64,000 bases of DNA, from assembly GCA_024682255.1 (NCBI GenBank), contig GCA_024682255.1_4716.1; one strand, written 5' to 3'. Below the pieces are notes generated by a model, which saw only the letters and a list, made by a program, of their open reading frames with translations, had not been told where the DNA came from and did no database searches. Of the stretch, positions 12,851 to 50,339 are shown one piece after another (the first letter of the stretch is position 1; each line of letters starts with the position of its first letter). The position numbers were made by a program, and so were the translations under genes. Source of the DNA: a phage.

Positions 12851-15463
12851 TTAAGCGTCCGGCGTAAAATCAAAAGGAATGTCCGTACGAATGATATCAT
12901 AACGTTTTCCGAGGAAATAGAACTCTTCGGGAACCTGGCCTGGAATGATGCTATCACCGATGAACTGCGGATACGCCCAGATGTACTGGGTGAGTCCTTC
13001 GAACATATCCAGGTTATTTGCGTGGTTGCCCATGATACGTTTCCAGAGTTCGCGTTTATACGGCGTTTTAACATCGAACCCATAAAGCGGTGCGAGGTCT
13101 TCACCAGGAACAAATCCCAGGTAATAGTGGATCTGACTAACTGGGAAACCAAGGGTATCTCGCGGAATGGTGATCGCTTGCTCAGCCTTGGTGACATGCG
13201 TCTCAATAATCCAGTCATAGCACTCTGAATAGAACCGATCGAATTTCTCTGGATTATACCACGCTTTGGGAAGATTGAGTTTCTCCGTGAACGCGTTCGA
13301 CATGATCGTCGGCAAGAACGGAAGAACGCCGGTTTTGATCTGCGTGTATTTCGATTTTACCCGGTTAACGAGATTCCAGCAACTGTATCCTAACTGTTCG
13401 TTACAAAACTCAACATAGAGATCGTAGTCACCACCGGATAACGGGTTGTTAATATCACCGATGTCTGCGGCGTATTTGTTGGGATATCGGTTATTGAAAG
13501 CCAGTTTGGTTTGGTAGTCGTAGATACACGGTTTGTTGTTCGCTGTATTGATCCACCACCAGGGTTCACCTACTTGTACACAAATGTCCTGGACATGAGG
13601 GTAAATGATATCAGCAAACGCGGTTAACACATCCCCTAACCACGTCATCGCCTGTTGGTTACATGGAGACAACAACCAAGACGGTGGCGTATATCCGGTT
13701 GCTGCGATGTTTCCTTCCCAATCCTGCTGCGCCCACTCGAACGGGCATGCGGTACTCATCAATTCGTAACTTAAACTGATGGTGACGGAGAAATGGTGTT
13801 TTGCAGCATATGCGGCGAAAGCTTCATGCCACGCGATACAGGCCGGATTTAATACATCCGTGGTGTTCACCAGTAACTTACCCGCACTTGGCGTCCAGAC
13901 AGTATCGTAGAAATGCGACATCCCAACATAATGCACTAATTCATCTTGATACCCCGCATAAACCAGGTTCTCAAATACGCGCTCCGGCGTGATGTTGTAA
14001 TGGTCATCATAAGCGGTTATCGCACGAAGTTCGTGTGGCGTACAGTGGTGGCGACTAACCGTCATTTCCTGATACACCCCATCGATAGGAAGAATCTCGA
14101 TGGTTAAACCGAGGTCGATTGGCGTTTCCAGATAGGTCGTTTCAGTCGCATCTTCCTTATAATGTCGAGAACTCATGCTGAACATCAACGACGTTACCGA
14201 TTCGAGTTCGATGGGTTCGTCAGCATAGAACCCCGCCATTGCGTCATTGAAATCGATCGTCACGATTGCGCTTCTACCGTCTTCAGAGACATCGGTCGCA
14301 TATCGGGTTAATGAGATATACTGACGGCTATCGTCTTTGTGTACGACGGTTAAAACCGGCGGGTGTTCGGTATCTGCAAAGTTACGCTGATCGCCAGTAA
14401 ACGTGACCTTCGCTTTAAAGATCAAACCGAGTAACGATGTCATGGGATCATACGCAATACATCCGTGATCCAGCGTATCCGTTGTCCGCCATTCTATCCC
14501 GACCAACCCGTTAGCGGTATGACATCGCATATACGCATTAAGTGTCATGTCCTCACTGACAACCGCGAAGTTCTCTGTTGACTGACCGTTGATAATCCAA
14601 TACATCGGTTGCCAGAGGTTACGCGTACCTTTTGCGTAGCGGTAGGTTGGTGCGCCTTTGGGGTTGCCATTATTAAGATGGAATACGGCAGTACCTTGAT
14701 AATGGTCGTTCGTATTAATCGGAACACTGTAAGCATCGCCGAGGTCCGTACGTTCCACCTTCGTGACTGTCGCGTTTTCAAATAACCCACGTAGCGCGGG
14801 TAAACCGATATCTTCCGGCGCGTTTTCTCGACGAATCGCATCCGCGATGCGGTGGGCTAAGGCGGGGTAAATGACCTCACCCTGTTGTAGGTTTGCAAGA
14901 CCTACAAAGCGATCGGGAGCGATACCAGCAATCAATAACTCGACATCACCCTTCGTTCTATCGTCGTTAAGATATTTCAGTCCGGTAAGGTCAAGATGCT
15001 GAATAAGCGACAACAGGTTGTATTTACGGTTTTCAACAGTTAGTACAAGATCGCCCGCCCAAACCAAACTTCCCTCATCCGCTGTTACTTTAACGGATTG
15101 TCGGCCCGTGGTAGACGTTGTTGTCGTTTTATTTAATTGTCCTTGTAGGAAGTCGGTTGCGAGGTCAAAGGCGATACCGTAACGGTCAGCGACCGCTTGC
15201 ATGATTTCACGTAACTGGGTATCTTCTTCAATGATAATCTTGACAGGTATTCCCAAGAACGCTTTAGCGAGGTCTCGTTTAACCAACGAGACGAATACGG
15301 ATTTGTAGTATCGGCTTCCATCTTTCCCTTTAAAAAGAATGGAGGTTGTTTCGGGTGCCGATAGAACACGTGCAAATACAACATCGTCGGAAGTAAGAGA
15401 AAGTCCGTTTTTCTCGTTGACCAATCTTAGTATTTCATTTTGCGCGGTTTCATGTAACTTCAT
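12851..15463 (-). CDS. Large receptor-binding or tailspike-like structural protein (870 aa) with shared N-terminal anchor module
   Basis: N-terminus shares RD(I/L)AKAFLGIPVKI and DRYG(I/F)(A/V)FD motifs with 21250-21777 and 62527-end products; position in tail fibre cluster. Confidence 0.6.
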   Translation of the reverse strand: MKLHETAQNEILRLVNEKNGLSLTSDDVVFARVLSAPETTSILFKGKDGSRYYKSVFVSLVKRDLAKAFLGIPVKIIIEEDTQLREIMQAVADRYGIAFDLATDFLQGQLNKTTTTSTTGRQSVKVTADEGSLVWAGDLVLTVENRKYNLLSLIQHLDLTGLKYLNDDRTKGDVELLIAGIAPDRFVGLANLQQGEVIYPALAHRIADAIRRENAPEDIGLPALRGLFENATVTKVERTDLGDAYSVPINTNDHYQGTAVFHLNNGNPKGAPTYRYAKGTRNLWQPMYWIINGQSTENFAVVSEDMTLNAYMRCHTANGLVGIEWRTTDTLDHGCIAYDPMTSLLGLIFKAKVTFTGDQRNFADTEHPPVLTVVHKDDSRQYISLTRYATDVSEDGRSAIVTIDFNDAMAGFYADEPIELESVTSLMFSMSSRHYKEDATETTYLETPIDLGLTIEILPIDGVYQEMTVSRHHCTPHELRAITAYDDHYNITPERVFENLVYAGYQDELVHYVGMSHFYDTVWTPSAGKLLVNTTDVLNPACIAWHEAFAAYAAKHHFSVTISLSYELMSTACPFEWAQQDWEGNIAATGYTPPSWLLSPCNQQAMTWLGDVLTAFADIIYPHVQDICVQVGEPWWWINTANNKPCIYDYQTKLAFNNRYPNKYAADIGDINNPLSGGDYDLYVEFCNEQLGYSCWNLVNRVKSKYTQIKTGVLPFLPTIMSNAFTEKLNLPKAWYNPEKFDRFYSECYDWIIETHVTKAEQAITIPRDTLGFPVSQIHYYLGFVPGEDLAPLYGFDVKTPYKRELWKRIMGNHANNLDMFEGLTQYIWAYPQFIGDSIIPGQVPEEFYFLGKRYDIIRTDIPFDFTPDA

Positions 15464-16304: not shown

Positions 16305-16811
16305 TTACTTACTGATAACCTCAACGGAGTTGGGATCAGCGATCAATGCACGGTCGGTAGAACAATTGAAGAAGACCATCCCAACACCATCGCCGTTCGA
16401 GTTCAGGGTCGAACTTGCGTAAGACAATGTTGGTTTGTTCATGCGGTAGAAGCGTTCGCTGGTTGCGGTATTGAACCCCAGGTCAACGTAGTCTTTCACC
16501 GTGGTATACAACTGGGTGGACTCGAAAACGGTTACCGGAGAGTCAACGGTAAACTGACTGCCTTCATCCACAACCAGAACTTTATCGTTCCAGATTTCAG
16601 TGGTTGAGAACTTCGGTTTCCAATGTTCGAATTCCTGGGTTGCACCCCAGCAAGAATACACAGCGAGATTGCTGTTCTTCTCAACAGGTTTTAACCCCAC
16701 CAGTTGCGTCAGGTCTTTATCCAGGTTCGGTAAACCTTCCAGCGTAGCACACCCACCCAGAGAAAGCACCATCAACATACCAAGAACGATCGCGCAAAGT
16801 TTCTTTGTCAT
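16305..16811 (-). CDS. Lipoprotein (168 aa); candidate superinfection-exclusion or receptor-masking factor
   Basis: Signal peptide plus lipobox MLMVLSLGGC; located between Tfa and receptor-binding protein genes. Confidence 0.6.
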   Translation of the reverse strand: MTKKLCAIVLGMLMVLSLGGCATLEGLPNLDKDLTQLVGLKPVEKNSNLAVYSCWGATQEFEHWKPKFSTTEIWNDKVLVVDEGSQFTVDSPVTVFESTQLYTTVKDYVDLGFNTATSERFYRMNKPTLSYASSTLNSNGDGVGMVFFNCSTDRALIADPNSVEVISK

Positions 16812-21982: not shown

Positions 21983-24900
21983 TTAAATGGTTGGTTTTAC
22001 ATCACGTAATAAGGCAATATAATAGCCTAATCCTCGGAGGATCTCCCCACTCCAGAAACCAAAATACATTCCGTCTCTGCCGAGATTAGCGCTATCTGGT
22101 GCAGGACTCCACCCACCATTCATTACGTCGTCAACAGTGTAATGGTTGATGTAGTTCTCAACGATTTCGTTATAAGCATTAACCGCAACAGAATAGCCTT
22201 TATCGTTGGGATGTCCGTACAACATTGCTAACGACGCACCCGCCAACCATAATCCCGCCATGTGACCAGTAAAGTCATTAGGGATAAAAGCAGGGGGTTT
22301 ATCCATCGGAAAATCCGTAGGGGATTGATAAGCGTTTTCCTGTTGATACGTAAACAAGAAATCGATCCAATGACTGATGTAAGTGGTTAATTTCTCAGGG
22401 ACAGCCAAACCATGATCAAGCAGCCCAGCATAAAGCCTCACCGCTGAGAAGAAAGCCCTCGGCTGATAACCGGACCATGCCGTCTGATCGCCGAAGTGGT
22501 ACATCGTAAAATCGTTAACTTTTGATCCGCTTGGCGCATCCCAACGATCCCACACGTACGCACTTGCCCCTGGCCCTAAAACCCCGAATTTCTGATAATA
22601 CCACTGTTGTGAGTCATACCAGAAATTCACAACGTTCTGAATCATGAGGTCACGTCGTTCAGTCGGTACTTCCATATCCAGGAAGACCCATGGATGTTGG
22701 TAGCCGGGATAAGGCTGACCACGCCAACTGTCGAACGTCGGTGCGTTAGGGATATAGTTGTTCGAGAACGGAATAATACCCGGAGTATAAGGCAACGGAT
22801 CGAGACGTTGGTTAACGATCGTGCAATCACCAACACGTAATGTTCCCTCTGCCTCAAAGGTTGCTTTTAACGTAAACAACATGGTATATCCGTCATCCGT
22901 GGTGTATGTTGACGGTGGATTGTTGATGGCGTAAAGCTTAAATACCCCTTCAGCGATATCGCTGTCGTCAGGCAAGAACAGAATTTCAGTTGAGCCATCG
23001 CCCCACACAGGTGCAGAAGGTCTAGGGTCAGTATCAGTGTGGTTCGGTTGATACCCTGAGAGCGTCCATCCGTTCGTCGAAAGCGTCAGCGTATTTCTTG
23101 CTGTGGTAGCCGGTAGCATCTGCCACCATCGCCAACCATTTGCATCTTCTACACGAACGTTGTAGTCAATCGACGCGAAATAACTGACCTGCCTTACGAT
23201 CTGTTTTGCGGTTGGATTGAATTCAAATTGCCCGCCTGCTGCAGTAAGCTGTGCTTTTAGGAACAACCCATCCCAGGAATCTTCCACTGCTTCGCTGAAT
23301 TCTGTTGTGATGGCGACATCATCTTTCCAGCCGACTTTATCAGCCGATACCAACACAGAACCTGTAACAGCATCACCGGTTGGTGTTGATGCTTCATCAA
23401 CCGCATCAGCAGGAATCAACGAGCCTATTTTGAAATCCCATCCTTTCGGTTCAGCGCTGGAAGGTAATACCAGTTTGTACGTTTTGGCGTTCGCTTCGGT
23501 TTTGTCCAAAGAAAGCGATAATGAGATCTCAACCGGAATTGCGACACCGGCTGTATCTTTACCTCCGCAGGTTACACGAAGAATTGAATCCCGATTTACG
23601 CGGAACGGAATGGCCTGCTGCTCAAGGTAAATTTGTGCTGAAGATGCTTGAATCACGATCCAGCCATCGGTATCACGCGTGATTGTAAATGGTGCTTTCG
23701 ATGGGTATGTATACGTGTAAGCGATACCGTCGGTGTCGTAACGATCGGTTCCTTTTACCTGACGGAAGAACTTATCGTTGGCGTCGATACGGGTATATTC
23801 TTCAATCGTAAACAACGATGCCTTGTACGCTTTCTGATAGCGCTCCTGCTGCGTTAAACGATATAAGGTGTAGGCTGCTTCACAAAACCACTGTTCGGCG
23901 TCTGATGCGTTTCCCATGTAGTCTCTGGTGACCGGCACCTGGATCGGTCGGTTATGCTGACATTCGTTTGTTTTGATGAGGTATCCACCATATTCAACAG
24001 GAACGCGGGGTGCCCATGCAACCAAGTAAGAACCGCTGACGGATTTATCTTTGAGTACGATGGTACCTACTTCATCGTCGGTACACGCTTCAAGATCGTC
24101 TCCGTCAGCACTTACGTAACGTTTTGTGCGTAACGCAACTTTCTCGATAGGGAACACCGTACCCTTTGTATCCCAGTCAATTGTCCCATCATCATTGGTT
24201 TTGAACACATCCGCGTTCAAATTCTGCCAGCCGAGTTTACCCTCATAGACCTGAACAACAAGATCCATGTATTCCCCGAACGTGGGCGCGCCATGTGTTA
24301 TTTTTCCGATACCGTTGGTGAATGTAACCGCTGTGTCATGGAAACCGCCATGTGTTGGGTAATCGTCTTTTGCAAGAGGATAATGGGCCAACACAGGTTG
24401 TTTACCATTAACAATCCAGTTAGCGATCCAGCGTGCTGGTGTATCCGGTGGTTCAAGGCCTGCATAGAACGCATTTATATACGCATCGAACGATGCCTCC
24501 GCTAATGTGAGATAATGCGCTTTAAGCTTGGTATCATCCGTTGTATGACTGAATATACCCGCACCCAGAATTAACAACGACTGTCCTTCTGTTGTTGCGT
24601 CACCGTCCGGTTGTGCTTCTTGTCGTGTTGCTGCAATGAAATGACGGTTGTTTACCATGACTCCGCTTTCATTTAACACGTAATGATCGGTTTCTGGATC
24701 GGTAAACGTTCCTGTGTTTCGGGTTAAGAATCTTGCATGACCATAACCAACGAAATTAACCGGCGACGCCGTAAGCACCCATTTACCGATAAGTTGAGCG
24801 ACGTCATTATAACGCTCCGATGCGGTGATTTGTTTCACGTACCAATCTTTACGGTTAAATGTCCAGAGCAAGAAGTAATAGGTCGTATTGATTTCCATTA

Positions 24901-25592: not shown

Positions 25593-26423
25593 TTAATCGT
25601 AACTAAAATAAAGTTTGCTGCTGACGCCGCTATCGGAATGAGGTTTTAATACCAGAACAGAACTTCCGAACGACGGAAGTATTGGAACATTTAAATCGTT
25701 TGCGTCGGCAACTTTTCCATTATAAACGACACTGGCTGTTGTGATGAGTTCCCAAGCCGAGGCATAACTCATTGAAATCAGCGATGAGGCTAAACGGAAT
25801 GCGTTGTATCCTTCTGGAGTATCTCCAACTGACATCGAACGTATCGCATCTTGCGGCGGTAAATTTAGCTTGATGCCGTAGGTACTGAATGTGTGGAAAT
25901 CCCCTTGTTTACTATCTTCTGGATAGTACGAGGTTAGTGGTTCTCGCACCGTAAACAGTTCGCTAATATCGGTACTTACCGCTTTTCGTGCGAGGAATTG
26001 AAACGTACCGTACCACGATGCTGATGCATCAGAACGAACGGGAACAGATATGGTTTTCTCGCCGCTTTCAAATTTAACCTGTGATGCTAACGCTGAAGAA
26101 TCAAAGATCGTTAAATCGATCTTCAGCCCATACTTCTTAAACAGCTGCGTTAAGCAATCTGCTATCGTCGTCTTATCAGCAACGACAATAAAAGGTTGGT
26201 GTTTGATAAAGAGCTTATTAATGTCACGACGTTGAAGATAAACCTGTACGGGGTCTTCGATATAGTAAGTCGATTGTGGTGTGGGGACTATAGAAAGGCG
26301 TAACCGACCTGATGCACCATACCAGGCTGGCGTTAACGTAATGTCTGACAGGGATAACGGATGCTGGAGATAGGTGTTTATTTTAGATAACACTTCCTCC
26401 TGCCATGATGCTTCAGGATACAT
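25593..26423 (-). CDS. Hypothetical structural protein (276 aa), weakly related to the shared N-terminal module
   Basis: Contains RRDINKLF and FKKYGLKID resembling RRDIAK / DRYGxxFD motifs. Confidence 0.55.
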   Translation of the reverse strand: MYPEASWQEEVLSKINTYLQHPLSLSDITLTPAWYGASGRLRLSIVPTPQSTYYIEDPVQVYLQRRDINKLFIKHQPFIVVADKTTIADCLTQLFKKYGLKIDLTIFDSSALASQVKFESGEKTISVPVRSDASASWYGTFQFLARKAVSTDISELFTVREPLTSYYPEDSKQGDFHTFSTYGIKLNLPPQDAIRSMSVGDTPEGYNAFRLASSLISMSYASAWELITTASVVYNGKVADANDLNVPILPSFGSSVLVLKPHSDSGVSSKLYFSYD

Positions 26424-26507
26424 GCTGACCTCATAGATGATCGTTGATAGGAAAGAGACCTAATTCATACCATGGGAACCTTAAAAAAAAAAAGAAAAAT
26501 AGGAAAA

Positions 26508-26537
26508 CGGTGTTCATCCCTAAAAGGATGAACACCG
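26508..26537 (-). terminator. Strong rho-independent terminator (minus strand)
   Basis: 12-bp stem CGGTGTTCATCC/GGATGAACACCG followed on minus strand by long T-tract (A-rich 26483-26507 on + strand). Confidence 0.8.
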
Positions 26538-26557
26538 CGTACCGTTATATCGAACGA

Positions 26558-27133
26558 TTAGTAAGGAATCAGATCGTTAAGCTTTTCTTCTTCAATGACA
26601 AAGAAGTTGTTCTGGTCGTCTAAATCTGTTAACAGGACTTGCCCAACAGTAAAGCAAGTGCCGCCTTTCTTAGGCACCCATACAGGCTCGTTCGTTACCT
26701 TATCGGGATACCATTTGAAACGATTGGTATCTAAGAAGAACGCTGCTTTGTTCGCTTTATCAGTTGAACGATAGCTAACTAGCGCAGGCCACTCAATCCA
26801 GGTGTTTGTGCACGGCACATGTAAAGGATACCATGCGCGCCAGCGTTTGCCTGGCCTGTTAGGATCAACCCAATACTCGGCAGTCAATACAGCATCTTTA
26901 TAATGTTTCTGCATTAACATTTCGAGCACAAGCTCATTGCCTTTTGATGCGTCTAACGTCACTTCCGTCATATAAAGCGATTTAGGTAATTCAGACTGTT
27001 TTGCGGGTGTTACAACACCGGTAACCAACGGTCTGCTCGGTTTACGTTTCTGTTCTTTCCGACGTGTGTAAAAGAATAGTCCGACAGATACGGCAACAAG
27101 TATAATAAACAACACTACCTTAATCCAATTCAT
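26558..27133 (-). CDS. Membrane-anchored protein (191 aa), N-terminal TM then Trp-rich domain
   Basis: N-terminus MNWIKVVLFIILVAVSVGLFFY followed by basic stretch. Confidence 0.6.
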   Translation of the reverse strand: MNWIKVVLFIILVAVSVGLFFYTRRKEQKRKPSRPLVTGVVTPAKQSELPKSLYMTEVTLDASKGNELVLEMLMQKHYKDAVLTAEYWVDPNRPGKRWRAWYPLHVPCTNTWIEWPALVSYRSTDKANKAAFFLDTNRFKWYPDKVTNEPVWVPKKGGTCFTVGQVLLTDLDDQNNFFVIEEEKLNDLIPY

Positions 27134-27918
27134 TCGTCAATATCTCCTTCTACAAACAGAGTCAATTTGATTTCAGGGTCATAGAACATAGTAATCACAT
27201 CATCCTGCTCTACTGAACGCTGTGCTGTCCATATTAACTGTTCATCCCGAATATCAAATTTATGTCGTTCGTCACTCACCACAGCTTCCGCATCAACGTA
27301 ATGGTAAACCTCACCGAGAGGATTCTCAATCCAACCGCGTACCATCAAACGTTCTTTTTGTTTACGTGTAAAGAAGCGATAAGGATCTTCGCACGTGCGC
27401 CACACGTCCCCGTTCTCGTTAACCAGCTCATCATAAACTTTAGAGAGTTCGTCAGGTACCGGAATCAAAATGTTATCTTGATAGTTAGACCAGAAACGAC
27501 GTACGTCTTGGATCAACTCATCGTCTGGGAGTTTAGTCGCTATGTTACTATAATCGATTTCAACAGTATCGATATCAGGACGGGTAAACGGAAGAGCGTC
27601 TAGATTTCCCACCATGACCTCGATACTATCATGATGAACACGAATCCATCCATCGAACCATCTATACCCATCAGCTTGATATAACGTTGTATGATAAGTG
27701 ACGACGTTAATGTCTTCGAACGATTCTAATAAGGCTTTAGCGGCTAAAAGCGGCGAAAAGTTCTTTGATTGTCCTGGTTTACGTATTTCTTCTTTGATGA
27801 ACAATTTACCAAGCGCCGGGTGTTCGATAACAAAACCACAGGAGAGCATGATGCTTCCTTGATAACGTGCTTCTTGCATTTTCCATTCCTTAAACAAAGT
27901 GTGTCTTTTACGCGACAT
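27130..27918 (-). CDS. Hypothetical protein (262 aa)
   Basis: ORF with 4-nt overlap to downstream gene. Confidence 0.6.
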   Translation of the reverse strand: MSRKRHTLFKEWKMQEARYQGSIMLSCGFVIEHPALGKLFIKEEIRKPGQSKNFSPLLAAKALLESFEDINVVTYHTTLYQADGYRWFDGWIRVHHDSIEVMVGNLDALPFTRPDIDTVEIDYSNIATKLPDDELIQDVRRFWSNYQDNILIPVPDELSKVYDELVNENGDVWRTCEDPYRFFTRKQKERLMVRGWIENPLGEVYHYVDAEAVVSDERHKFDIRDEQLIWTAQRSVEQDDVITMFYDPEIKLTLFVEGDIDE

Positions 27919-27955
27919 GATTACAAGTACACAGGTTACTGAATTTCTGTAAAAG

Positions 27956-28486
27956 TTAATGTTTGTTCTTTACGAACTCTATCGCCTCCAGAATACCAGC
28001 GTTTAATCGTTGACCGCGTTCCTCCATTGTCCCACCATCGCGATGTTTGAAATTAACCGAGTGGATATCCCAAGCCCAGTAATGTGTCTCCGGCGTGTCG
28101 TCTTCTTTGGTGGGATCGCTCAATCTGTTAACCCCAATTCGCCAAATATAATCAGCGGGTTGTCGTCGTAAGCATTCACCTATAGCGTCTATATAAGACA
28201 ACCCTTCGGTCGTCACAGCGACGACAACGTGTGGGTGTTTTTTGACTTCTTTGGTTGTTTGTTTGCCGTCCAATGTCACGCTGATCTTTTGAATTTCGTG
28301 TCCTTCGCACGACCATATCGGTGCAATACCTGGCGCATCTAACAACGCCTGGCATGCGGGTAATATACCAGGTTCAATGACTCCTTCCTTGATAGCCATC
28401 CATGCACGTTCTTTGAATTTCGCTAATTGTTCTTCGGTGACAACAAAAGAAAACATGATTACTCCTTTCTGGTTCTTCCCCTCCAC
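27956..28486 (-). CDS. Hypothetical protein (176 aa)
   Basis: ORF in minus operon. Confidence 0.55.
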   Translation of the reverse strand: MEGKNQKGVIMFSFVVTEEQLAKFKERAWMAIKEGVIEPGILPACQALLDAPGIAPIWSCEGHEIQKISVTLDGKQTTKEVKKHPHVVVAVTTEGLSYIDAIGECLRRQPADYIWRIGVNRLSDPTKEDDTPETHYWAWDIHSVNFKHRDGGTMEERGQRLNAGILEAIEFVKNKH

Positions 28487-28528
28487 AGCCTCAGGAAGAG
28501 AAGAACCGTTTGCTAAGTTGCTAAGTAA

Positions 28529-28786
28529 TTAAAATGCGTTGATTGGGTTGTTCAGCGCTTTATCGCGGATTTGAATCGCCGCCAGCATTGCTTTCTGGTA
28601 CGAATCGTAAGCATCAACAGAAACCGTCATATCAACCAATTTCTCTAATACGGATTCAGCCGCTTTTACGCGGATGCGGAACTTGGTGATGGCGTTATCT
28701 TTGTTACGATAAACCGTGATGTGGTGCAACGGTTGAACGTTAGTTTTATTCGTTTTAACGGATTTAGTTGCTTTGATCGTTTTCAT
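28529..28786 (-). CDS. Small basic protein (85 aa), possible DNA-binding
   Basis: ORF; Lys/Arg-rich N-terminus. Confidence 0.45.
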   Translation of the reverse strand: MKTIKATKSVKTNKTNVQPLHHITVYRNKDNAITKFRIRVKAAESVLEKLVDMTVSVDAYDSYQKAMLAAIQIRDKALNNPINAF

Positions 28787-28840
28787 GGTGATTTCCTTCT
28801 TTATTAGGATGATTACATTTAGTCAGTTTAACAGCATAAA

Positions 28841-28865
28841 CCCTTCCTGCCTTACGCAGGAAGGG
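28841..28865 (-). terminator. Terminator hairpin downstream of endolysin gene
   Basis: CCCTTCCTGC-CTTAC-GCAGGAAGGG preceded by CATAAA. Confidence 0.6.
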
Positions 28866-28879
28866 CATACGGATTTGTT

Positions 28880-29377
28880 TTACGTGTGTCGTCGTTTACC
28901 AAAGAAAATGTGACTGTCTACCACGGTGATATTGGTAGCATGTTTTCTGAAATGTTTAGGGCGAAGATGTTTCGCGTTAAAGAATACGGCTCCTCGTGTT
29001 GGGTCGGCTTTATGGTAAGCCGCAATGTCAATATAACGTAATGTTGCGACCTCTCGCGCTATTGCTCTTGCTCGCTCAAAAGCAGCATGATCGCGTATGA
29101 CAATACGCCTTTGTTTTGTCCAGGGGAATTGACCTCTTTGCAGTACGACGTCTTTGACGTTCGTAGGGAATCGGTAGTCCATAGATCGATTATGTATTAA
29201 AAACGCCACGGAGTATTGCCCTTTTACAGATTCGCCTCTGGCTTCCATATACACAGCACATGCGACGATCTCTTTCCGGCAATCGATTCTAGGTCCTGCG
29301 TTCACTGATGCTTGACTGAACGGTGTGATAAGCAACATAACAAGCCCTAAAATCAACGTGTGTAAAATACCTTGCAT
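28880..29377 (-). CDS. Secreted endolysin, SleB/CwlJ-like cell wall hydrolase (Hydrolase_2 family) with N-terminal signal peptide
   Basis: Signal peptide ending SQA-SV; motifs YMEARGES, VAFLIHNR, FPTNVKDVVLQRGQF, GAVFFNAKH matching SleB-type hydrolases; GAGGT RBS. Confidence 0.75.
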   Translation of the reverse strand: MQGILHTLILGLVMLLITPFSQASVNAGPRIDCRKEIVACAVYMEARGESVKGQYSVAFLIHNRSMDYRFPTNVKDVVLQRGQFPWTKQRRIVIRDHAAFERARAIAREVATLRYIDIAAYHKADPTRGAVFFNAKHLRPKHFRKHATNITVVDSHIFFGKRRHT

Positions 29378-29629
29378 CTTAATAACCTCACGATAAGGTG
29401 CTGTCCACTGGCGTCTTGATAACGCATCCCATCATCGGGTTGTTCTATTCAGCGGGCAGCAGGTTAGCGTCAGATGTTTGCCCGACATCCACGACAGAAA
29501 TAAGCGGTACTGAAATTACGGTCTCCTCTGGTTTGGCAATAAACATAACGTTGGATAACAGAACCCATTTCCCGCATCCAACGCGGTAAAGGTGTACATC
29601 GTTTGAATTCATATAGTTTCTCAAAGATG

Positions 29630-29950
29630 TTAACCTCTACCGTCAAGCCATAGGTTGTATTTATCCCGAACATACGGATCGCGATAAATACGTCGATAGA
29701 CTTGATGTGGTATAAACTTGCAATGTACGAGTTCATCGCTTAATTTATGCCGTCGTTCCACACCGTTGTGAATACGACGTATCTCCCGGATATTAAAGGT
29801 TGTTTTATTCAAGAGAATAGACATAATGGCGGATCGATGATCCAGATTAAAGATCGCCATCACGCTTCGTATCTCACGTAAAACAACTTCTCTATCGACA
29901 AGGATGCGATTAGTTAACTTAAGATTCTCCGTGATACCCATAACCTTCAT
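29630..29950 (-). CDS. Hypothetical protein (start uncertain) in lysis region
   Basis: ORF 29630-29998 overlaps upstream membrane-protein gene; internal start assumed. Confidence 0.3.
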   Translation of the reverse strand: MKVMGITENLKLTNRILVDREVVLREIRSVMAIFNLDHRSAIMSILLNKTTFNIREIRRIHNGVERRHKLSDELVHCKFIPHQVYRRIYRDPYVRDKYNLWLDGRG

Positions 29951-30290
29951 CCTCGACACGTCGACACATCGGTAAAAATAAACACCAGCTTGTTGCACTG
30001 AGGATCGCCGTTGCGATGATATTTGCGATATCGCTCAGTCGGGCATCGACCTGCCACATAACAAGCATAAAAAGAACGTATGCGAACCCATACACGACAA
30101 ACCGTCTGATGTTACGCGTCGACCACGTACAAATATACAAAAGGGGAAGCTGCCCTATAACACAAACGATGGTTCGGATAACGTAATAAACGCGTTCCGT
30201 CGTTGTTTCAAAATCGATATTCGTTGCAGAAATCCCGATCATTATAAAAGTGAAAATGAAATAGATTTTTGCGTATGTCTTTAAACTCAT
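29919..30290 (-). CDS. Multi-pass membrane protein (123 aa), holin or antiholin candidate
   Basis: Three to four hydrophobic helices; adjacent to holin-like gene and upstream of endolysin. Confidence 0.5.
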   Translation of the reverse strand: MSLKTYAKIYFIFTFIMIGISATNIDFETTTERVYYVIRTIVCVIGQLPLLYICTWSTRNIRRFVVYGFAYVLFMLVMWQVDARLSDIANIIATAILSATSWCLFLPMCRRVEDEGYGYHGES

Positions 30291-30306
30291 GGCTTTTCCC
30301 GATCGT

Positions 30307-30540
30307 TTATTTGTGTTTTCCTACATTCCTCAACAAGGTAACGATAACGAATACCGCTATCATCAAGAAGACGAACCATAACCCTACGTTAATTCGGGCG
30401 GCTGGTACATCCACCATGAAGAACATCGTCCCACAAAACCCAATGACTATCCATGCTAGAACCATCCCTGTTAATCCCCGCAGCAACTTAAGCCAGATCA
30501 TAAACTTCTCCTTACTTTTTCTGATAAAGCGATGATTCAA
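30307..30540 (-). CDS. Small membrane protein with two TM helices (holin-like)
   Basis: Hydrophobic segments LTGMVLAWIVIGFCGTMFFMV and VGLWFVFLMIAVFVIVTLL, basic C-terminus. Confidence 0.5.
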   Translation of the reverse strand: MNHRFIRKSKEKFMIWLKLLRGLTGMVLAWIVIGFCGTMFFMVDVPAARINVGLWFVFLMIAVFVIVTLLRNVGKHK

Positions 30541-30674
30541 ATTTTAGAAACATCCCTAATGCGAATGCGAGTAATAACGCACGTATCCACATACCTCCTT
30601 GACAACTGTTGTACAACATAAAGACCAGAGCGATGCCGCCCATATGCAGGCGGCACTTATCGAACAGTGTTGGT

Positions 30675-30902
30675 TTATACATAAGAGATCAATCGTTGAA
30701 TGATTTTTACTTTGCCTTTACCTGGGCCTTTCTTGCGGCGATTCAACAGACGGATACTGTTTCCAGTTACGGTGTCGCCATCATAATCAGCCCGGAACTG
30801 TGATAAAAAAGCAGGTTGTATCTGATCGACACCAGGATTGCTGTAGAAAGGATTGAGACTTAAAAGAGGGTTAGCTGGAATCATCGTATCGTCCTTACTC
30901 AA
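30675..30902 (-). CDS. Hypothetical small protein (75 aa)
   Basis: ORF immediately downstream of 30903-31253. Confidence 0.35.
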   Translation of the reverse strand: MSKDDTMIPANPLLSLNPFYSNPGVDQIQPAFLSQFRADYDGDTVTGNSIRLLNRRKKGPGKGKVKIIQRLISYV

Positions 30903-31253
30903 TTATTTACCCAGATAGAGGTATTCACCACCCTGAACAACACCGGTTGCTGGATCAACAAGTATACGAACCCGCGCGTAGGTCTTGAAAGAGGGGTTGA
31001 AGACTTCGAAGTCTGCCACTTTCAATTTCACGCTGGGGTTGGTAGGGTTCTTAACTCCGGGAAGTTCTTTCGGGGTACCGAAATCAACACCACATTCTTC
31101 AAGGTCTGCTGGCGTCATGCTCTCCATGGCCATGTAGATTGCTTTTGCTTTATCGTAAACTTCCGGGCTATCCAGCAACCCAGCCTGTGCTGAACCGACA
31201 ACACTACCGAACAGAATAGCAACAGCAACAAACAATTTAGTTAACGTTTTCAT
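30903..31253 (-). CDS. Secreted periplasmic protein (116 aa)
   Basis: Signal peptide MKTLTKLFVAVAILFGSVVGSAQA. Confidence 0.6.
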   Translation of the reverse strand: MKTLTKLFVAVAILFGSVVGSAQAGLLDSPEVYDKAKAIYMAMESMTPADLEECGVDFGTPKELPGVKNPTNPSVKLKVADFEVFNPSFKTYARVRILVDPATGVVQGGEYLYLGK

Positions 31254-31289
31254 GATATTTTCCTCGAAAGTAAAATGTTACAATACCTA

Positions 31290-31712
31290 TTAACGTACGG
31301 CCGCTACGCTGTTAGCGCATGCCTGAATATCATCGGTATTTACGATGATGGTTTCGTTAAACGCACGAATACGCGCACGACGTGCTTCTTTAAGGCTGGC
31401 GATTGCGCTAGCAGCTTGATCTGTATTCGCAAGGCTAATAACCGGGATCAAACGCATATCGGGACTGCAGATATTCAATGCTTGGTATACACGTCCATTG
31501 ATTCCTACGGTATCAGACATCGGATAGTGCGCACGGCATTGAAATTGACCCATGACAACAAGCGAACGATCGGAGATACCAATCTGATAACGACCGTCTT
31601 CGCTGTAGGCGTAACAGTTATTCCCACGAGCCATCCAGTTAGCCTGTGCTTGCGTGCTAACAAAAGCCAGAGTGGTGACGATAGCGAATGCGATATTTTT
31701 GAACAGTTTCAT
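31290..31712 (-). CDS. Secreted periplasmic protein (140 aa)
   Basis: Signal peptide MKLFKNIAFAIVTTLAFVSTQAQA. Confidence 0.6.
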   Translation of the reverse strand: MKLFKNIAFAIVTTLAFVSTQAQANWMARGNNCYAYSEDGRYQIGISDRSLVVMGQFQCRAHYPMSDTVGINGRVYQALNICSPDMRLIPVISLANTDQAASAIASLKEARRARIRAFNETIIVNTDDIQACANSVAAVR

Positions 31713-31772
31713 GATAAAGATCCTCGTTGAAATAAAATCGGTATAAAGGCCCCCCCATTTAGGGGGACCTGA

Positions 31773-32090
31773 TTAGTTTGCACGTAAGAAATGACCCAGA
31801 ACCGTTACGATTGGAAACAGCCCTGTAACAGTATCATCGCCCGAAAACATCATCATTGTTCCGTTAACGGTGATGAAACGGATGTCGGTTGCGGACCCAT
31901 CGATAGCGACAAAACGCATCGAGTTCGGTGGAAGGTCCTCAACAACTTCCACGAGATACTCGCGATTATCAAAGGCTTCTTTAACACGACGCATGAAACG
32001 AATCAATGTTCCTTCCGCGTCGGCTTCCAAATGACCTAAGATATCGCGATTATTACGAATAGCGAATACAGCCATTTTAAACATACTCAT
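31773..32090 (-). CDS. Hypothetical protein (105 aa)
   Basis: ORF with conserved leader ATCCAATATAAAAGGATGTCAAG before ATG; terminator 31748-31769 downstream. Confidence 0.55.
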   Translation of the reverse strand: MSMFKMAVFAIRNNRDILGHLEADAEGTLIRFMRRVKEAFDNREYLVEVVEDLPPNSMRFVAIDGSATDIRFITVNGTMMMFSGDDTVTGLFPIVTVLGHFLRAN

Positions 32091-32156
32091 CTTGACATCC
32101 TTTTATATTGGATTGGTTGCTAATAATTCAAGGTGAAGCTGATTACTGCATTGCTT

Positions 32157-32180
32157 CACCTAAGTAATATAGCCGTGAAA
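32157..32180. promoter_or_regulatory. Conserved 24-nt intergenic motif CACCTAAGTAATATAGCCGTGAAA (copy 1)
   Basis: Near-identical copy at 60177-60200; both upstream of minus-strand gene starts. Confidence 0.4.
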
Positions 32181-32198
32181 ATTAATGTATTAACCTAT

Positions 32199-33155
32199 TC
32201 ACGCTTTTGCTAAGTAGGGTTGGATCTCATTAATCCGTTTAACCACAACCTCAGGGAAAAGTTTGAGTATTTTATCAGGTGGTATTGAACCTTCCGTCCA
32301 ACGATAGCGTTCAACCATCTCAATGCGTGGACTCCCTCCGACGTCAGCGATACGAAAGATACAGGCGATGCCTAAATCGAAGCATACGCTGTAAATATCT
32401 TCCGTACCTCCTTTATCAGCAAGTATTTTCGCAAAATGCTCGTTATCGGGAAGAATGGCTAAATTACGGATACACCAAACATTATTCCCCATTTCTTCAA
32501 GTTTTGGGTAGGTTAAAGTGTGCCCGTATTGCGTTAACCATCGATGATTTTCGAGGTAGAAGTCCTTATCCCCTGGCCGATAACCCAGTATCACTCCCGT
32601 GTAGAAGAGATTGGGCATATCAAGCAGTTCTTGCACTGTCGGGCCGGTATGCTCCCAAAGACAGATTTGTTTACGGTCTATATCGTAATCTGTGACGTTA
32701 CTCACCTCCCAACTTATCGTAAGTTCATCGGCAACGTGCCAACCTAAAGCGTGTTCGCCGCCAAGCAGATTAACAATGGTTGACACTTCATACTTGTCAA
32801 ATACGCCTAAATTACGCGGTGGTTGCATCGTACGTAATGGCTCCCACAGCACACTGTAATCATAGAGCAAATGGCGACATAAACTTTTTGTTAGGGGCGT
32901 CTGTTCAGTGAACAGGGGAAGAATCACCGTATCCAATAACGGGCGTAACGGATGACCATCCGCTGGTAACGGGGCAGCCAGCCGACCTCCTTCTTTGGGG
33001 TAATCGAGACCAAACCCGTAACGCTCCGAAATGAGCGCAATCAACACTTTTGCTACGCGGTTACGTAGCATGCGATGGATATCATCACTGTAACTGAATT
33101 TCGGTTTATTACCGCAAACGAAGGTGAAGTATCTGGGCGTTAGCACAGCCATCAT
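32199..33155 (-). CDS. Hypothetical protein (318 aa)
   Basis: Long ORF. Confidence 0.65.
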   Translation of the reverse strand: MMAVLTPRYFTFVCGNKPKFSYSDDIHRMLRNRVAKVLIALISERYGFGLDYPKEGGRLAAPLPADGHPLRPLLDTVILPLFTEQTPLTKSLCRHLLYDYSVLWEPLRTMQPPRNLGVFDKYEVSTIVNLLGGEHALGWHVADELTISWEVSNVTDYDIDRKQICLWEHTGPTVQELLDMPNLFYTGVILGYRPGDKDFYLENHRWLTQYGHTLTYPKLEEMGNNVWCIRNLAILPDNEHFAKILADKGGTEDIYSVCFDLGIACIFRIADVGGSPRIEMVERYRWTEGSIPPDKILKLFPEVVVKRINEIQPYLAKA

Positions 33156-50175: not shown

Positions 50176-50306
50176 CGTTTTCACCTCGTCGTAAAAGTAA
50201 ATAGAGTTTTGTCGAGACGCCCTAATTACTTACAACGTCGGTTCCCCCGGCTTCAGAGAATTCTCAAAATCCGTTAGTTTTGATAGACAGGGTAAGACGG
50301 CATAAA

Positions 50307-50327
50307 AGCCTCCCGTAACGGGAGGCT
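50307..50327 (-). terminator. Terminator-like hairpin
   Basis: AGCCTCCCG-TAA-CGGGAGGCT preceded by CATAAA. Confidence 0.55.
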
Positions 50328-50339
50328 CCATTAATCAGT

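What the first reader, a model, noticed from the sequence alone, without database searches (positions are those of the whole stretch)
28880..30540. Lysis cassette with a signal-peptide SleB-like endolysin and two holin-like membrane proteins
The endolysin belongs to the SleB/CwlJ hydrolase family, unusual among Gram-negative phage lysins, and carries a cleavable-looking N-terminal signal sequence, implying Sec-dependent export. Two membrane proteins lie upstream (2 TM and 3-4 TM). No clear spanin pair was recognised nearby, though two secreted proteins lie just upstream.
Basis: partly seen in the sequence, partly recalled or inferred. Interest (0 to 1): 0.4.

Follow-up and report, generated by a model that had tools for sequence, protein, structure and literature searches.

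The report
Exported SleB-type lysin operon, Goslar-like phage
A Goslar-like jumbo phage of E. coli has an operon that ends in a secreted cell-wall-cutting enzyme beside small membrane proteins; the enzyme is already annotated in Goslar and common in other phages, but its role in bursting the cell is untested and an unusually conserved RNA leader in front of it is new.

Summary
ORF 28880-29377 (-) encodes a 165-aa Hydrolase_2 (SleB/CwlJ) enzyme with an N-terminal signal-peptide-like segment. A 4-TMD ORF and a 2-TMD ORF lie upstream.

The window is about 95% identical to nucleus-forming phage Goslar. This gene is Goslar gp098, already annotated "endolysin".

- **"Unusual in Gram-negative phages" is wrong.** Homologues occur in more than 1000 phage records, and the three inspected have signal-peptide-like N-termini.
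- **The 4-TMD gene is dispensable.** It is missing from three related genomes.
- **An unannotated 56-aa hydrophobic ORF and the 2-TMD protein are always present.**
- **No spanins, and no homologues of the phiKZ lysis cassette, were found.**
- **Goslar has a second endolysin.** It is a soluble GH108 type, lies outside the window, and is conserved in related jumbo phages.
- **The operon may be early.** It starts at a motif shared with the early gene chmA and ends at a strong hairpin.

New here: the roughly 270 nt before the lysin gene are the most conserved stretch in 12.5 kb across seven aligned genomes (thirteen over the leader itself). They fold stably (z = -4.4) and pair with the lysin's ribosome-binding site.

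Verdict: a plausible secretory-endolysin module. Whether it is the main lysis system is unproven.

The parts
32150..32195 (-). Promoter-like motif TTTCACGGCTATATTACTTAGGTGA (TATATTAC at 32164-32171), 81 nt upstream of the gp105-like start codon. Proposed operon start, possibly early-type.
   Evidence: TATATTAC is the most enriched 8-mer in oriented upstream gaps of Goslar: 6 gaps against 0.34 expected. Seven of the 10 Goslar copies share the flanks, and one of these lies 80 nt upstream of chmA. Within the window alone the bare 8-mer is not enriched.
31773..32090 (-). gp105-like ORF, 105 aa, soluble, function unknown. First gene of the proposed unit.
   Evidence: Against Goslar it has 7 synonymous and 1 nonsynonymous difference.
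31290..31712 (-). gp104-like protein, 140 aa, with a signal-peptide-like N-terminus (…TQAQA|NW) and four Cys residues.
   Evidence: In P0009 a gp104-like N-terminal half (similarity judged by eye, not computed) is fused to a gp103-like domain that matched in the search.
30903..31253 (-). gp103-like protein, 116 aa, with a signal-peptide-like N-terminus (…GSAQA|G). The model shows a cystatin/PepSY-like alpha+beta fold.
30675..30902 (-). gp102-like ORF, 69-75 aa, with a strongly cationic C-terminal tail (+8 over 18 residues).
30512..30682 (-). orf56: a 56-aa hydrophobic ORF that is not annotated in Goslar. Candidate small membrane protein (holin or antiholin partner).
   Evidence: Intact wherever the region is covered in the fetched relatives, at 80-95% identity.
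30307..30501 (-). gp101-like protein, 64 aa, two TMDs, basic N- and C-termini (N-in/C-in). It has class II holin or pinholin-like topology and is the best holin candidate.
   Evidence: Hydropathy. The start is inferred from Goslar and L012. Present in all relatives where the region is covered. No holin-family HMM hit.
29919..30290 (-). gp100-like protein, 123 aa, four hydrophobic segments. A variable accessory membrane protein.
   Evidence: Absent from L012, L014 and L025, and 46-47% identical in L024 and L026. No homologue outside Goslar among phage records.
29630..29941 (-). gp099-like soluble ORF, 103 aa, function unknown. It diverges fast (58-95% identity among relatives).
29378..29646 (-). 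Ultra-conserved structured leader upstream of the hydrolase gene. It contains a small ORF (TTG at 29624, or ATG at 29612, to the stop at 29445).
   Evidence: Only 3-7% variable sites per 30-nt bin, against 13-50% in the hydrolase CDS. It is the least variable stretch among 1059 sliding 180-nt windows over 12.5 kb (0.056 against a median of 0.372). L015 differs at 5 of 201 leader sites but at 78 of 495 CDS sites, p = 1e-7. MFE -89.9 kcal/mol, z = -4.38. One compensatory pair. No Rfam match.
29468..29475 (-). Predicted anti-Shine-Dalgarno segment (within ACAUCUGACG). It pairs with the hydrolase SD GAGG at 29386-29389.
   Evidence: The three 3' SD bases (AGG) have unpaired probability 0.00-0.09 in four different folding windows (the first G is mostly unpaired), always with the same partners. 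All of these columns are invariant, so covariation cannot be tested.
28880..29377 (-). SleB/CwlJ-family (Hydrolase_2) peptidoglycan hydrolase, 165 aa, equivalent to Goslar gp098. Predicted signal peptide is residues 1-23 (29309-29377), cleaved after SQA. The motif glutamate E45 (aligned with SleB's YGESRGE) lies in YMEARGE.
28832..28865 (-). GC-rich 10-bp hairpin followed by TTTATGCTG. Terminator-type element that closes the unit.
   Evidence: Fold energy -25.8 kcal/mol, z = -6.0. Base changes in L012, L014 and L015 that appear to preserve the stem (by eye in the alignment). The same hairpin + TTTATGCYG element recurs 13 or more times in Goslar.

Best explanation
The flagged interval is the 3' half of a roughly 3.3-kb minus-strand operon (about 32171 to 28832) in a close relative of the nucleus-forming E. 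coli jumbo phage Goslar.

**Layout**
- The operon starts at a promoter-like motif that Goslar also carries in front of its early gene chmA.
- It encodes a run of envelope-targeted small proteins: two with signal-peptide-like N-termini, one with a cationic tail, one 56-aa hydrophobic ORF, one 2-TMD protein with class II holin topology, and one variable 4-TMD protein.
- It ends with a SleB/CwlJ-family muramidase that carries a Sec-type cleavable signal peptide, followed by a strong hairpin.

**Proposed mechanism (inferred; only the sequence features are shown)**
1. The hydrolase is exported by Sec and cleaved after SQA23. It therefore reaches the cell wall without needing a holin hole.
2. Its synthesis is limited or delayed by the conserved structured leader, which base-pairs the Shine-Dalgarno sequence. 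Ribosomes translating the small leader ORF could open that helix (translational coupling).
3. In the periplasm the enzyme stays harmless until the small membrane proteins depolarise the inner membrane. The candidates are the 2-TMD gp101-like protein, possibly together with orf56. This is how the signal-peptide endolysins Lys44 of phage fOg44 and Lys of Campylobacter phage F352 behave.

On this reading it is a secretory-endolysin lysis module. It probably works alongside the soluble GH108 endolysin that Goslar encodes elsewhere, rather than replacing it.
For: **Identity:** 94.9% nucleotide identity and collinearity with Goslar.

**Enzyme**
- Hydrolase_2 match well above the curated cut-off.
- The motif glutamate (aligned with the first Glu of SleB's YGESRGE) and the family invariants are kept.

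**Export signal**
- The hydrophobic core is 15 residues and Leu/Ile-rich, with Pro at -5 and S-Q-A at -3 to -1. It is invariant or conservatively substituted in all relatives.
- Homologues in phages Arash, DevonBitter (T5-like) and UPEC06 (Vequintavirinae) all have signal-peptide-like N-termini, each with a Lys at position 2.

**Membrane partners**
- The gp101-like protein has two TMDs with basic termini.
- It is present, together with orf56, in every fetched relative where the region is covered.
- An independent lineage pairs a signal-peptide SleB-like gene with an overlapping 2-TMD ORF (PMC7344957).

**Single transcription unit**
- Promoter-like motif at 32171 and hairpin element at 28865-28832.
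- No other copy of either element lies between them on that strand.

**Leader:**

**Precedent:** signal-peptide endolysins that a holin activates through PMF collapse (PMC6116005, PMC7692668).

**No competing cassette found**
- No holin-like cluster lies next to Goslar gp024.
- No homologues of phiKZ gp141-144.
Against: - Goslar has a soluble GH108 + PG_binding_3 endolysin that is 43-53% identical in SPN3US, phiEaH2, PaBG and other jumbo phages. The SleB-like gene has no close homologue outside the Goslar lineage; the best is 45% in a non-jumbo phage. It therefore looks accessory.
- The operon's promoter-like motif is the one found before the early gene chmA. A lysis enzyme would be expected late.
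- In T5-like phages the homologue lies in the early region, far from the holin (PMC3326045; PMC11180984).
- No spanin or lipobox ORF is nearby.
- No holin-family HMM hit for any of the membrane ORFs.
- The signal peptide has no Lys or Arg in its n-region.
- The membrane ORFs evolve quickly, with nonsynonymous roughly equal to synonymous differences.
- The RBS-sequestering helix is invariant, so it has no covariation support.
- Nothing here was tested experimentally.
Confidence: 0.45

Rival explanations
1. This is an accessory early periplasmic module, not the lysis system. The exported SleB-like enzyme and the secreted and membrane proteins are made early. They remodel or loosen the sacculus, for example to let the cell swell around the phage nucleus, or they act in superinfection exclusion or envelope conditioning. 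Lysis itself would be carried out by the GH108 endolysin and by holin and spanin genes not yet recognised.
For: - The promoter-like motif is shared with the early gene chmA.
- The cluster sits at the end of a long array of small accessory genes.
- The GH108 endolysin is conserved in relatives, whereas this cluster is specific to the Goslar lineage.
- Homologues in T5-like and Vequintavirinae phages lie among early replication genes and coexist with another endolysin (PMC3326045; PMC7344957; PMC11180984).
- Bacterial homologues of gp103 and gp104 sit in CP4-57-like islands with no lysin nearby.
Against: - An active muramidase exported early would be dangerous unless restrained.
- A conserved 2-TMD holin-like partner is present here, and again in Vequintavirinae.
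- No holin candidates were found next to gp024.
- The early timing is inferred from a motif, not measured.
Confidence: 0.35
2. This is a SAR endolysin with a pinholin. On this reading the N-terminal segment is not cleaved. [quoted passage not shown]
For: - An N-terminal hydrophobic segment next to the catalytic domain.
- No basic n-region.
- Two Cys residues (C33, C40) just before the motif glutamate E45.
- A small 2-TMD partner.
Against: - The hydrophobic core is Leu/Ile/Val/Met/Phe-rich (12 of 18 residues) and has only 4 of 18 Gly/Ala/Ser/Thr. SAR domains are weakly hydrophobic (criteria in PMC7692668).
- A canonical c-region (P-x-S-Q-A|S) is present and invariant.
- The three inspected homologues have signal-peptide-like N-termini with a Lys at position 2.
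Confidence: 0.08
3. On the leader only: its conservation might reflect a real 55-59-aa protein gene, or a recently exchanged recombination block, rather than a regulatory RNA.
For: - An ORF (29445-29624) is open in all 13 sequences, and a gene caller called it in L014.
- A second reading frame is also open.
- Conservation drops sharply at gene borders, as expected at mosaic junctions.
Against: - Substitutions in the ORF frame are 8 nonsynonymous to 3 synonymous (read from A4). That is close to neutral, not protein-constrained.
- Third-position divergence in the adjacent CDS is 34% in L015, against 2.5% across the block.
- The block folds far better than shuffled sequence.
- One double substitution keeps a base pair, and five single changes keep wobble pairing.
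Confidence: 0.25

Closest known systems
Escherichia phage vB_EcoM_Goslar gp098 (YP_009820783.1, annotated 'endolysin') and its neighbours gp099-gp105
   Same: The protein is 98.8% identical (2 substitutions). Gene order is the same, and so are the leader and the terminator hairpin.
   Different: This is a different isolate or contig, about 95% identical at the nucleotide level. orf56 and the leader are not annotated in Goslar. No function has been tested in Goslar either; no Goslar lysis study turned up, and the review read in full does not mention lysis genes.
Signal-peptide SleB-like hydrolases of Vequintavirinae/Certrevirus (Pectobacterium phage CB7_83 with the 2-TMD CB7_82; Cronobacter CR3_087) and of T5-like phages
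   Same: A Hydrolase_2 domain behind a cleavable signal peptide, with a small 2-TMD N-in/C-in ORF beside it (PMC7344957).
   Different: Only 30-36% identity. In those phages the 2-TMD ORF lies downstream and overlaps the hydrolase gene; here it lies upstream and is separated by two genes and a leader. T5-like phages show no adjacent membrane ORF, and their holin is elsewhere (PMC3326045).
Signal-peptide (secretory) endolysins: Lys44 of Oenococcus phage fOg44 and Lys of Campylobacter Fletchervirus F352
   Same: A tripartite N-terminal signal, Sec export, and activation expected from holin-driven loss of membrane potential (PMC6116005, PMC7692668).
   Different: The catalytic domains differ (F352 has SLT, PF01464). 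Those systems were tested experimentally; this one was not. The n-region here has no basic residue.
SAR endolysin / pinholin systems (P1 Lyz, phage 21 R21 with S21-68)
   Same: A holin-independent, Sec-dependent route to the periplasm, and a small 2-TMD membrane partner.
   Different: The N-terminal segment here is strongly hydrophobic and carries a signal-peptidase site (criteria in PMC7692668).
phiKZ lysis cassette gp141 / 141.1 / 142 / 143 / 144 (PMC12894885)
   Same: Both phages are nucleus-forming jumbo phages, and in both the lysin is clustered with membrane proteins.
   Different: tblastn finds no sequence homologue of any of the five proteins in Goslar or in the window (all E above 0.05). 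The phiKZ endolysin is soluble. Its holin has one TMD with a large cytoplasmic domain, and spanins are present.
Bacillus spore cortex-lytic enzyme SleB with its partner YpeB
   Same: The catalytic domain family and the ExRGE motif are shared. A secreted protein in the operon (gp103-like) has a cystatin/PepSY-like fold that also resembles YpeB and YpmB domains.

Membership tests
Hydrolase_2 / SleB-CwlJ catalytic domain (PF07486) | Profile match above the curated gathering score | tested here: met
   59.8 bits against a cut-off of 27, E = 4.3e-16, covering the whole profile (1-100).
Hydrolase_2 / SleB-CwlJ catalytic domain (PF07486) | Conserved glutamate in the Y-x-E-x-R-G-E motif, taken to be catalytic from my own knowledge of SleB | tested here: met
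   YMEARGE aligns with YGESRGE of SleB structures 4F55 and 4FET. E45, R47, G48 and E49 are invariant in 7 phage homologues.
Hydrolase_2 / SleB-CwlJ catalytic domain (PF07486) | Muralytic (lytic transglycosylase) activity | not testable with these tools
   Needs a zymogram or muropeptide analysis. The AF2 model was too poor to use (pLDDT 45.8).
Spore cortex-lytic enzyme SleB (orthologue, TIGR02869) | Equivalog-level match, including the N-terminal PG-binding domain | tested here: not met
   41.4 bits against a cut-off of 236.5. Only the C-terminal catalytic part aligns.
Signal-peptide (secretory) endolysin | Tripartite N-terminal signal: strongly hydrophobic h-region, and a c-region with small residues at -3 and -1 | tested here: met
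   The h-region is ILHTLILGLVMLLIT and the c-region is PFSQA|S. It is conserved in relatives, and the three homologues inspected also have signal-peptide-like N-termini. Caveats: the n-region has no Lys or Arg, and the judgement is rule-based with no SignalP run.
Signal-peptide (secretory) endolysin | Sec-dependent export with cleavage, and activation by holin-mediated depolarisation | not testable with these tools
   Needs fusion, azide and uncoupler experiments.
Signal-peptide (secretory) endolysin | It is the enzyme the phage uses for lysis | tested here: inconclusive
   A second endolysin (GH108) is conserved in relatives. The operon has an early-type promoter motif. On the other side, this is the only hydrolase clustered with holin-like ORFs.
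SAR endolysin | Weakly hydrophobic, Gly/Ala/Ser-rich N-terminal TMD with no signal-peptidase site | tested here: not met
   Only 4 of 18 core residues are Gly/Ala/Ser/Thr, and 12 of 18 are Leu/Ile/Val/Met/Phe. An SQA|S site is present.
Class II holin / pinholin (gp101-like) | Small protein with two TMDs, N-in/C-in topology and a charged C-terminus, encoded near the endolysin | tested here: met
   64 aa, TMDs at about residues 10-30 and 41-57, with K5/R8 at the N-terminus and RNVGKHK at the C-terminus. It lies about 930 nt upstream of the hydrolase gene in the same unit.
Class II holin / pinholin (gp101-like) | Homology to a described holin family | tested here: not met
   No significant Pfam, PHROG or NCBIfam hit. 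Holins are very diverse, so this is weak negative evidence.
Class II holin / pinholin (gp101-like) | Timed lethality and premature triggering by energy poisons | not testable with these tools
   Needs expression or complementation, for example in a lambda Sam lysogen.
Spanins (two-component or unimolecular) | An outer-membrane lipoprotein with a lipobox, adjacent to or embedded in an N-terminal-TMD coiled-coil protein; or a lipoprotein with a C-terminal TMD | tested here: not met
   Lipobox scans of the window and of the whole Goslar genome find only the gp088-like lipoprotein (16305-16811). It lies 12 kb away and has no C-terminal TMD. gp103 and gp104 have AQA|G and AQA|N sites with no Cys.
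phiKZ-type lysis cassette | Homologues of gp141, gp141.1, gp142, gp143 and gp144 | tested here: not met
   tblastn of all five proteins against Goslar and the window gives a best E of 0.06.

The most novel reading that the evidence does not exclude
The roughly 270-nt ultra-conserved leader could be a cis-regulatory RNA that sets the lysis clock at the level of translation. On this reading the operon is transcribed early from a chmA-type promoter. The exported SleB-like lysin is made only when the RBS-sequestering helix is opened, either by translation of the leader ORF or by a phage factor.

The secreted cystatin/PepSY-like gp103 protein might then hold the enzyme inactive in the periplasm, much as YpeB partners SleB in spores.

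That would be a lysis control scheme not described for any jumbo or nucleus-forming phage.
Probability: 0.2. Interest if true: 0.65.

Novelty: new member of a known kind. Interest (0 to 1): 0.4.

Why it matters
How nucleus-forming jumbo phages of enterobacteria lyse their hosts is unknown. The phiKZ cassette was only defined in 2026 (PMC12894885), and none of its five proteins has a detectable homologue in Goslar.

This operon is the only place in the Goslar-type genome where a cell-wall hydrolase sits with holin-like membrane proteins. That gives a concrete, testable candidate, together with a competing one (the GH108 endolysin).

Signal-peptide SleB-like hydrolases occur in more than a thousand enterobacterial phage genomes, and I found no experimental study of their function. 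Settling the role of one would help to annotate the rest.

The leader would matter separately if it is real. It would be a conserved structured RNA controlling an exported lysin, in a phage family where mRNA must leave a nucleus-like compartment before it is translated.

Tried and rejected
- **AF2 model of the hydrolase.** Only four near-identical sequences were allowed in the alignment, and the model was unusable (pLDDT 45.8). No fold search was run on it.
- **Rfam.** Scanning 26000-33000 at E up to 1 found nothing.
- **Small ORFs in the leader.** Both orf59 and the overlapping second frame were tested for coding signal. The first comparison showed only nonsynonymous changes. With 13 sequences the counts were 8 nonsynonymous to 3 synonymous in one frame and about 7 to 3 in the other (from A4). 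Ordinary protein coding was rejected as the cause of the conservation.
- **Leader repeats.** The leader is unique in both the window and Goslar.
- **Sigma-70 promoter and generic terminator scans.** These gave no more hits than shuffled sequence, and they missed the hairpin after the hydrolase.
- **Goslar expression timing.** The RNA-seq paper exists (bioRxiv 10.1101/2023.09.20.558163), but its per-gene table is not held.
- **Literature search for TATATTAC.** Nothing useful came back. My recollection that phiKZ early promoters have a similar motif, and late ones TATG, remains unverified.
- **gp100 as holin.** Downgraded after it was found missing from relatives.
- **gp103 and gp104 as spanins.** Rejected: no lipobox, and homologues lie in bacterial CP4-like islands.
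- **gp102 as a disruptin-like peptide.** It has a cationic tail, but the hydrophobic moment is only moderate (0.4-0.46). Left as speculation.
- **gp094-like protein (N-terminal TMD) as holin or i-spanin.** The basic stretch after the TMD argues for a cytoplasmic C-terminal domain. There are no homologues outside Goslar, and it lies beyond the terminator element.
Full report
**What the window is.** Positions 28000-32000 are 94.9% identical to Escherichia phage vB_EcoM_Goslar, a 237-kb nucleus-forming chimallivirus. The whole window is collinear with Goslar 83-146.6 kb. Every gene in the flagged region is on the minus strand. The flagged genes correspond to Goslar gp098-gp101, and gp098 is already annotated "endolysin / putative cell wall hydrolase, Hydrolase_2".

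**Check of the observation.**
- ORF 28880-29377 (-) encodes 165 aa. It matches Pfam Hydrolase_2 at 59.8 bits against a cut-off of 27 (E = 4.3e-16), PHROG 938 "endolysin", and the catalytic domains of Bacillus SleB, 4F55 and 4FET.
- The motif YMEARGE aligns with SleB's YGESRGE. E45, R47, G48 and E49 are invariant in seven phage homologues.
- It is not a SleB orthologue. The SleB equivalog model scores 41 bits against a cut-off of 236.
- The N-terminus is MQG-ILHTLILGLVMLLIT-PFSQA|SVNAG. It has a 15-residue Leu/Ile-rich core, Pro at -5, and Ser and Ala at -3 and -1.
- ORF 29919-30290 has four hydrophobic segments. ORF 30307-30540 has two, and its likely true start is M14 at 30501.
- Two proteins with AQA-type signal peptides lie upstream (30903-31253 and 31290-31712).

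The description is therefore correct. It omits a soluble ORF (29630-29941), a 252-nt gap before the hydrolase gene, and a 56-aa hydrophobic ORF (30512-30682) that Goslar's record does not annotate.

**How unusual the enzyme is.** It is not unusual.
- tblastn finds homologues in 1039 phage records, including 380 from Escherichia, 285 from Salmonella and 122 from Klebsiella. They include Vequintavirinae and T5-like Klebsiella phages.
- I translated three of them (Arash, DevonBitter, UPEC06). Each has a signal-peptide-like N-terminus with a Lys at position 2, and UPEC06 has an overlapping 70-aa 2-TMD ORF directly downstream.
- The Certrevirus literature already describes this pairing: CB7_83 is SleB-like with a signal peptide and CB7_82 is a class II holin candidate (PMC7344957).
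- Papers on T5-like phages place the SleB-like gene in the early region, far from the holin and the M15 endolysin (PMC3326045, PMC11180984; context).

**Signal peptide or SAR domain.** The core has 12 of 18 strongly hydrophobic residues and only 4 of 18 Gly/Ala/Ser/Thr. A c-region is present. By the criteria summarised in PMC7692668, these are signal-peptide features, not SAR features. The segment is invariant or conservatively substituted in all relatives. The one oddity is the absence of Lys or Arg in the n-region. No dedicated predictor could be run.

**Conservation of the cluster.** Eleven further Goslar-like loci were fetched, with hydrolase identity between 87% and 99%. Several are near-duplicates, so they represent roughly six distinct lineages.
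- The gene order is kept wherever the contig covers it: gp105, gp104, gp103, gp102, orf56, gp101, (gp100), gp099, leader, hydrolase, gp097, (gp096), gp095, gp094.
- The 4-TMD gp100 is cleanly absent from L012, L014 and L025 and is only 46-47% identical in L024 and L026. It has no homologue outside Goslar among phage records.
- The 2-TMD gp101 and orf56 are always present.
- gp101 has basic N- and C-termini and a neutral loop, which gives N-in/C-in class II holin topology.
- None of the membrane ORFs matches a holin family. They evolve with roughly equal nonsynonymous and synonymous differences.

**Transcription unit.**
- A 10-bp GC-rich hairpin followed by TTTATGCTG sits directly after the hydrolase stop codon (28865-28832). 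It folds at -25.8 kcal/mol with z = -6.0, and base changes in relatives appear to preserve the stem (by eye in the alignment).
- The same composite element, a hairpin plus TTTATGCYG, recurs 13 or more times in Goslar intergenic regions. Several copies are annotated there as terminators.
- Upstream of gp105 lies TTTCACGGCTATATTACTTAGGTGA. TATATTAC is the most enriched 8-mer in oriented upstream gaps of Goslar, found in 6 gaps against 0.34 expected.
- Seven of the ten genomic copies share the extended flanks. One lies 80 nt upstream of the chmA start codon, and the window copy lies 81 nt upstream of gp105.
- chmA is expressed from the start of Goslar infection (bioRxiv 10.1101/2023.09.20.558163).
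- Neither element occurs between 32164 and 28840 on the minus strand.

I infer one operon from gp105 to the hydrolase, possibly early. This rests on motifs only.

**The leader.** The stretch from the last 15 nt of gp099 to the hydrolase start (29646-29378) is extraordinarily conserved.
- In 13 sequences it has 3-7% variable sites per 30-nt bin, against 13-50% in the hydrolase CDS and 40-47% in the end of gp099.
- In L015 the block differs at 5 of 201 sites. The hydrolase CDS differs at 78 of 495 sites, and at 56 of 165 third positions (p = 1e-7 and 6e-17).
- In a 12.5-kb alignment of seven genomes, all 15 least-variable 180-nt windows out of 1059 fall at 29647-29318. The variable-site fraction there is 0.056 against a median of 0.372.
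- An ORF (29445-29624) is open in all sequences, but its substitutions are 8 nonsynonymous to 3 synonymous. A second open frame does no better (read from A4).
- The RNA folds at -89.9 kcal/mol against -70.0 for shuffled sequence (z = -4.38).
- RNAalifold predicts 87 pairs. One pair changes on both sides and stays paired (C-G to U-A in L027 and L028), five single changes keep wobble pairing, and three changes break pairs.
- In four different folding windows the AGG of the hydrolase Shine-Dalgarno GAGG (29389-29386) is paired with 29468-29475, with unpaired probability 0.00-0.09. The leader ORF's AUG sits in a loop.
- The apical part between the two pairing segments is the only variable patch, and it is replaced in L015.
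- There is no Rfam match and no repeat elsewhere in the genome.

I read this as a structured leader that sequesters the ribosome-binding site, possibly opened by translation of the leader ORF. That is an inference. The key helix is invariant, so it cannot be tested by covariation.

**Is it the lysis cassette?**

*Evidence for:*
- It is the only hydrolase in the Goslar genome that is clustered with holin-like ORFs.
- The same pairing recurs in an unrelated phage lineage (PMC7344957).
- Signal-peptide endolysins activated by holin-driven depolarisation are established, for Lys44 and for the Gram-negative phage F352 (PMC6116005, PMC7692668).

*Evidence against:*
- Goslar also encodes gp024, a GH108 + PG_binding_3 protein. 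It is 43-53% identical in SPN3US, phiEaH2, PaBG, Eowyn and other jumbo phages. It is therefore the family-typical soluble endolysin, and it lies outside this window. Goslar also has a tail lysozyme-domain protein, gp204.
- The SleB-like gene's nearest relative outside the Goslar lineage is 45% identical and comes from a non-jumbo phage.
- The promoter motif suggests early transcription.
- No spanin is nearby. In the whole Goslar genome only one convincing lipoprotein was found, gp088, which corresponds to window 16305-16811 next to the tail-fibre assembly gene.
- None of phiKZ gp141, 141.1, 142, 143 or 144 has a homologue. Goslar-type lysis is therefore not of the phiKZ type at the sequence level (PMC12894885).

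**The secreted proteins.**
- gp103 differs from its Goslar counterpart at 12 synonymous and 0 nonsynonymous sites.
- It belongs to a family of ~110-aa proteins with signal-peptide-like N-termini. In one member (P0009) a gp104-like N-terminal half (similarity judged by eye) is fused to a gp103-like domain, which would link the two functionally.
- Bacterial members lie in CP4-57-like islands alongside WYL, DUF932, antirestriction, RadC and CbtA/CbeA genes.
- These are not spanins. A role as a periplasmic inhibitor or chaperone of the hydrolase is only a possibility.

**Verdict.** The novelty claim is wrong, and the "lysis cassette" reading is plausible but unproven. A real competitor is that this is an accessory, possibly early, periplasmic module working beside a GH108 endolysin. 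The element itself is a new member of a known and already annotated kind.

Noticed in passing
window 29378-29646 (-): An ultra-conserved, stably folding leader lies upstream of the hydrolase gene. It is the least variable stretch in a 12.5-kb alignment of seven genomes and is predicted to pair with the Shine-Dalgarno sequence. It contains a small ORF with no protein-type constraint. It is not annotated in Goslar.
   Followed up: yes
window 28832-28865, 5616-5650, 22426-22460, 50298-50332 (-); Goslar L003-L007, many sites: A composite element recurs 13 or more times in Goslar intergenic regions: a GC-rich hairpin followed immediately by TTTATGC(C/T)G. The tail is too conserved to be a plain T-tract. 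It may be a terminator for the phage RNA polymerase, a terminator joined to a TATG-type promoter, or both.
   Followed up: partly
window 32150-32195 and 60170-60215 (-); Goslar 172971-172978 upstream of chmA: The extended motif TTTCACGG(C/T)TATATTAC(C/T)TA.GTGA is found before chmA and several other Goslar operons, about 80 nt upstream of the start codon. It is a candidate early (virion RNA polymerase) promoter. The third window copy (28360-28367) lies inside a gene and lacks the flanks.
   Followed up: partly
window 29919-30290 (-); L012, L014, L025: The 4-TMD gp100-like gene is a presence/absence polymorphism among Goslar-like phages. Where it is present in L024 and L026 it is only 46-47% identical. 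The gp096-like gene (27956-28486) is similarly absent from L012, L014, L025 and L027.
   Followed up: yes
window 30512-30682 (-): A 56-aa hydrophobic ORF overlaps the end of gp102 by 8 nt. It is intact in all relatives but is not annotated in either Goslar record.
   Followed up: partly
window 30903-31253 and 31290-31712 (-); L017, L020: gp103 and gp104 belong to a family of secreted proteins that also occurs, sometimes fused, in enterobacterial CP4-57-like genomic islands. Neighbouring genes there include WYL, DUF932, antirestriction, RadC and CbtA/CbeA. gp103 models as a cystatin/PepSY-like fold.
   Followed up: partly
window 30675-30902 (-): The gp102-like protein has a C-terminal tail, RLLNRRKKGPGKGKVKIIQRLISYV, with +8 charge over 18 residues. 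The tail is identical in the one divergent relative read (L012), while the N-terminal half varies. It might be a membrane-active or nucleic-acid-binding tail. A disruptin-like role is pure speculation.
   Followed up: partly
window 16305-16811 (-): This is the only convincing lipoprotein in the window and in the Goslar genome (MTKKLCAIVLGMLMVLSLGG|C, 168 aa). It lies directly downstream of the tail-fibre assembly gene and has no C-terminal TMD. It could be a receptor-masking or superinfection-exclusion lipoprotein, or an orphan o-spanin.
   Followed up: partly
window 12260-12829 (-), next to 12851-15463 (-): The gp085-like protein has a ~93-aa soluble N-terminal part followed by two or three hydrophobic segments. 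It lies directly downstream of gp086, a DUF7941 protein according to bioRxiv 10.64898/2026.04.21.720040. In phiKZ the holin gp142 sits next to the DUF7941 protein gp143, so this pair may deserve a look as an alternative holin locus.
   Followed up: no
Goslar L007 34664-35215 (-), outside the window: Goslar gp189 has i-spanin-like architecture: a basic N-terminus, one TMD, then a long heptad-rich periplasmic region with two Cys residues. No embedded or adjacent lipoprotein ORF was found.
   Followed up: partly
window 26507-26538 (-): A strong 14-bp hairpin terminator follows the gp094-like gene. This makes gp097 to gp094 a separate short unit downstream of the hydrolase operon. The gp094-like protein has an N-terminal TMD followed by RRKEQKRK.
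   Followed up: no
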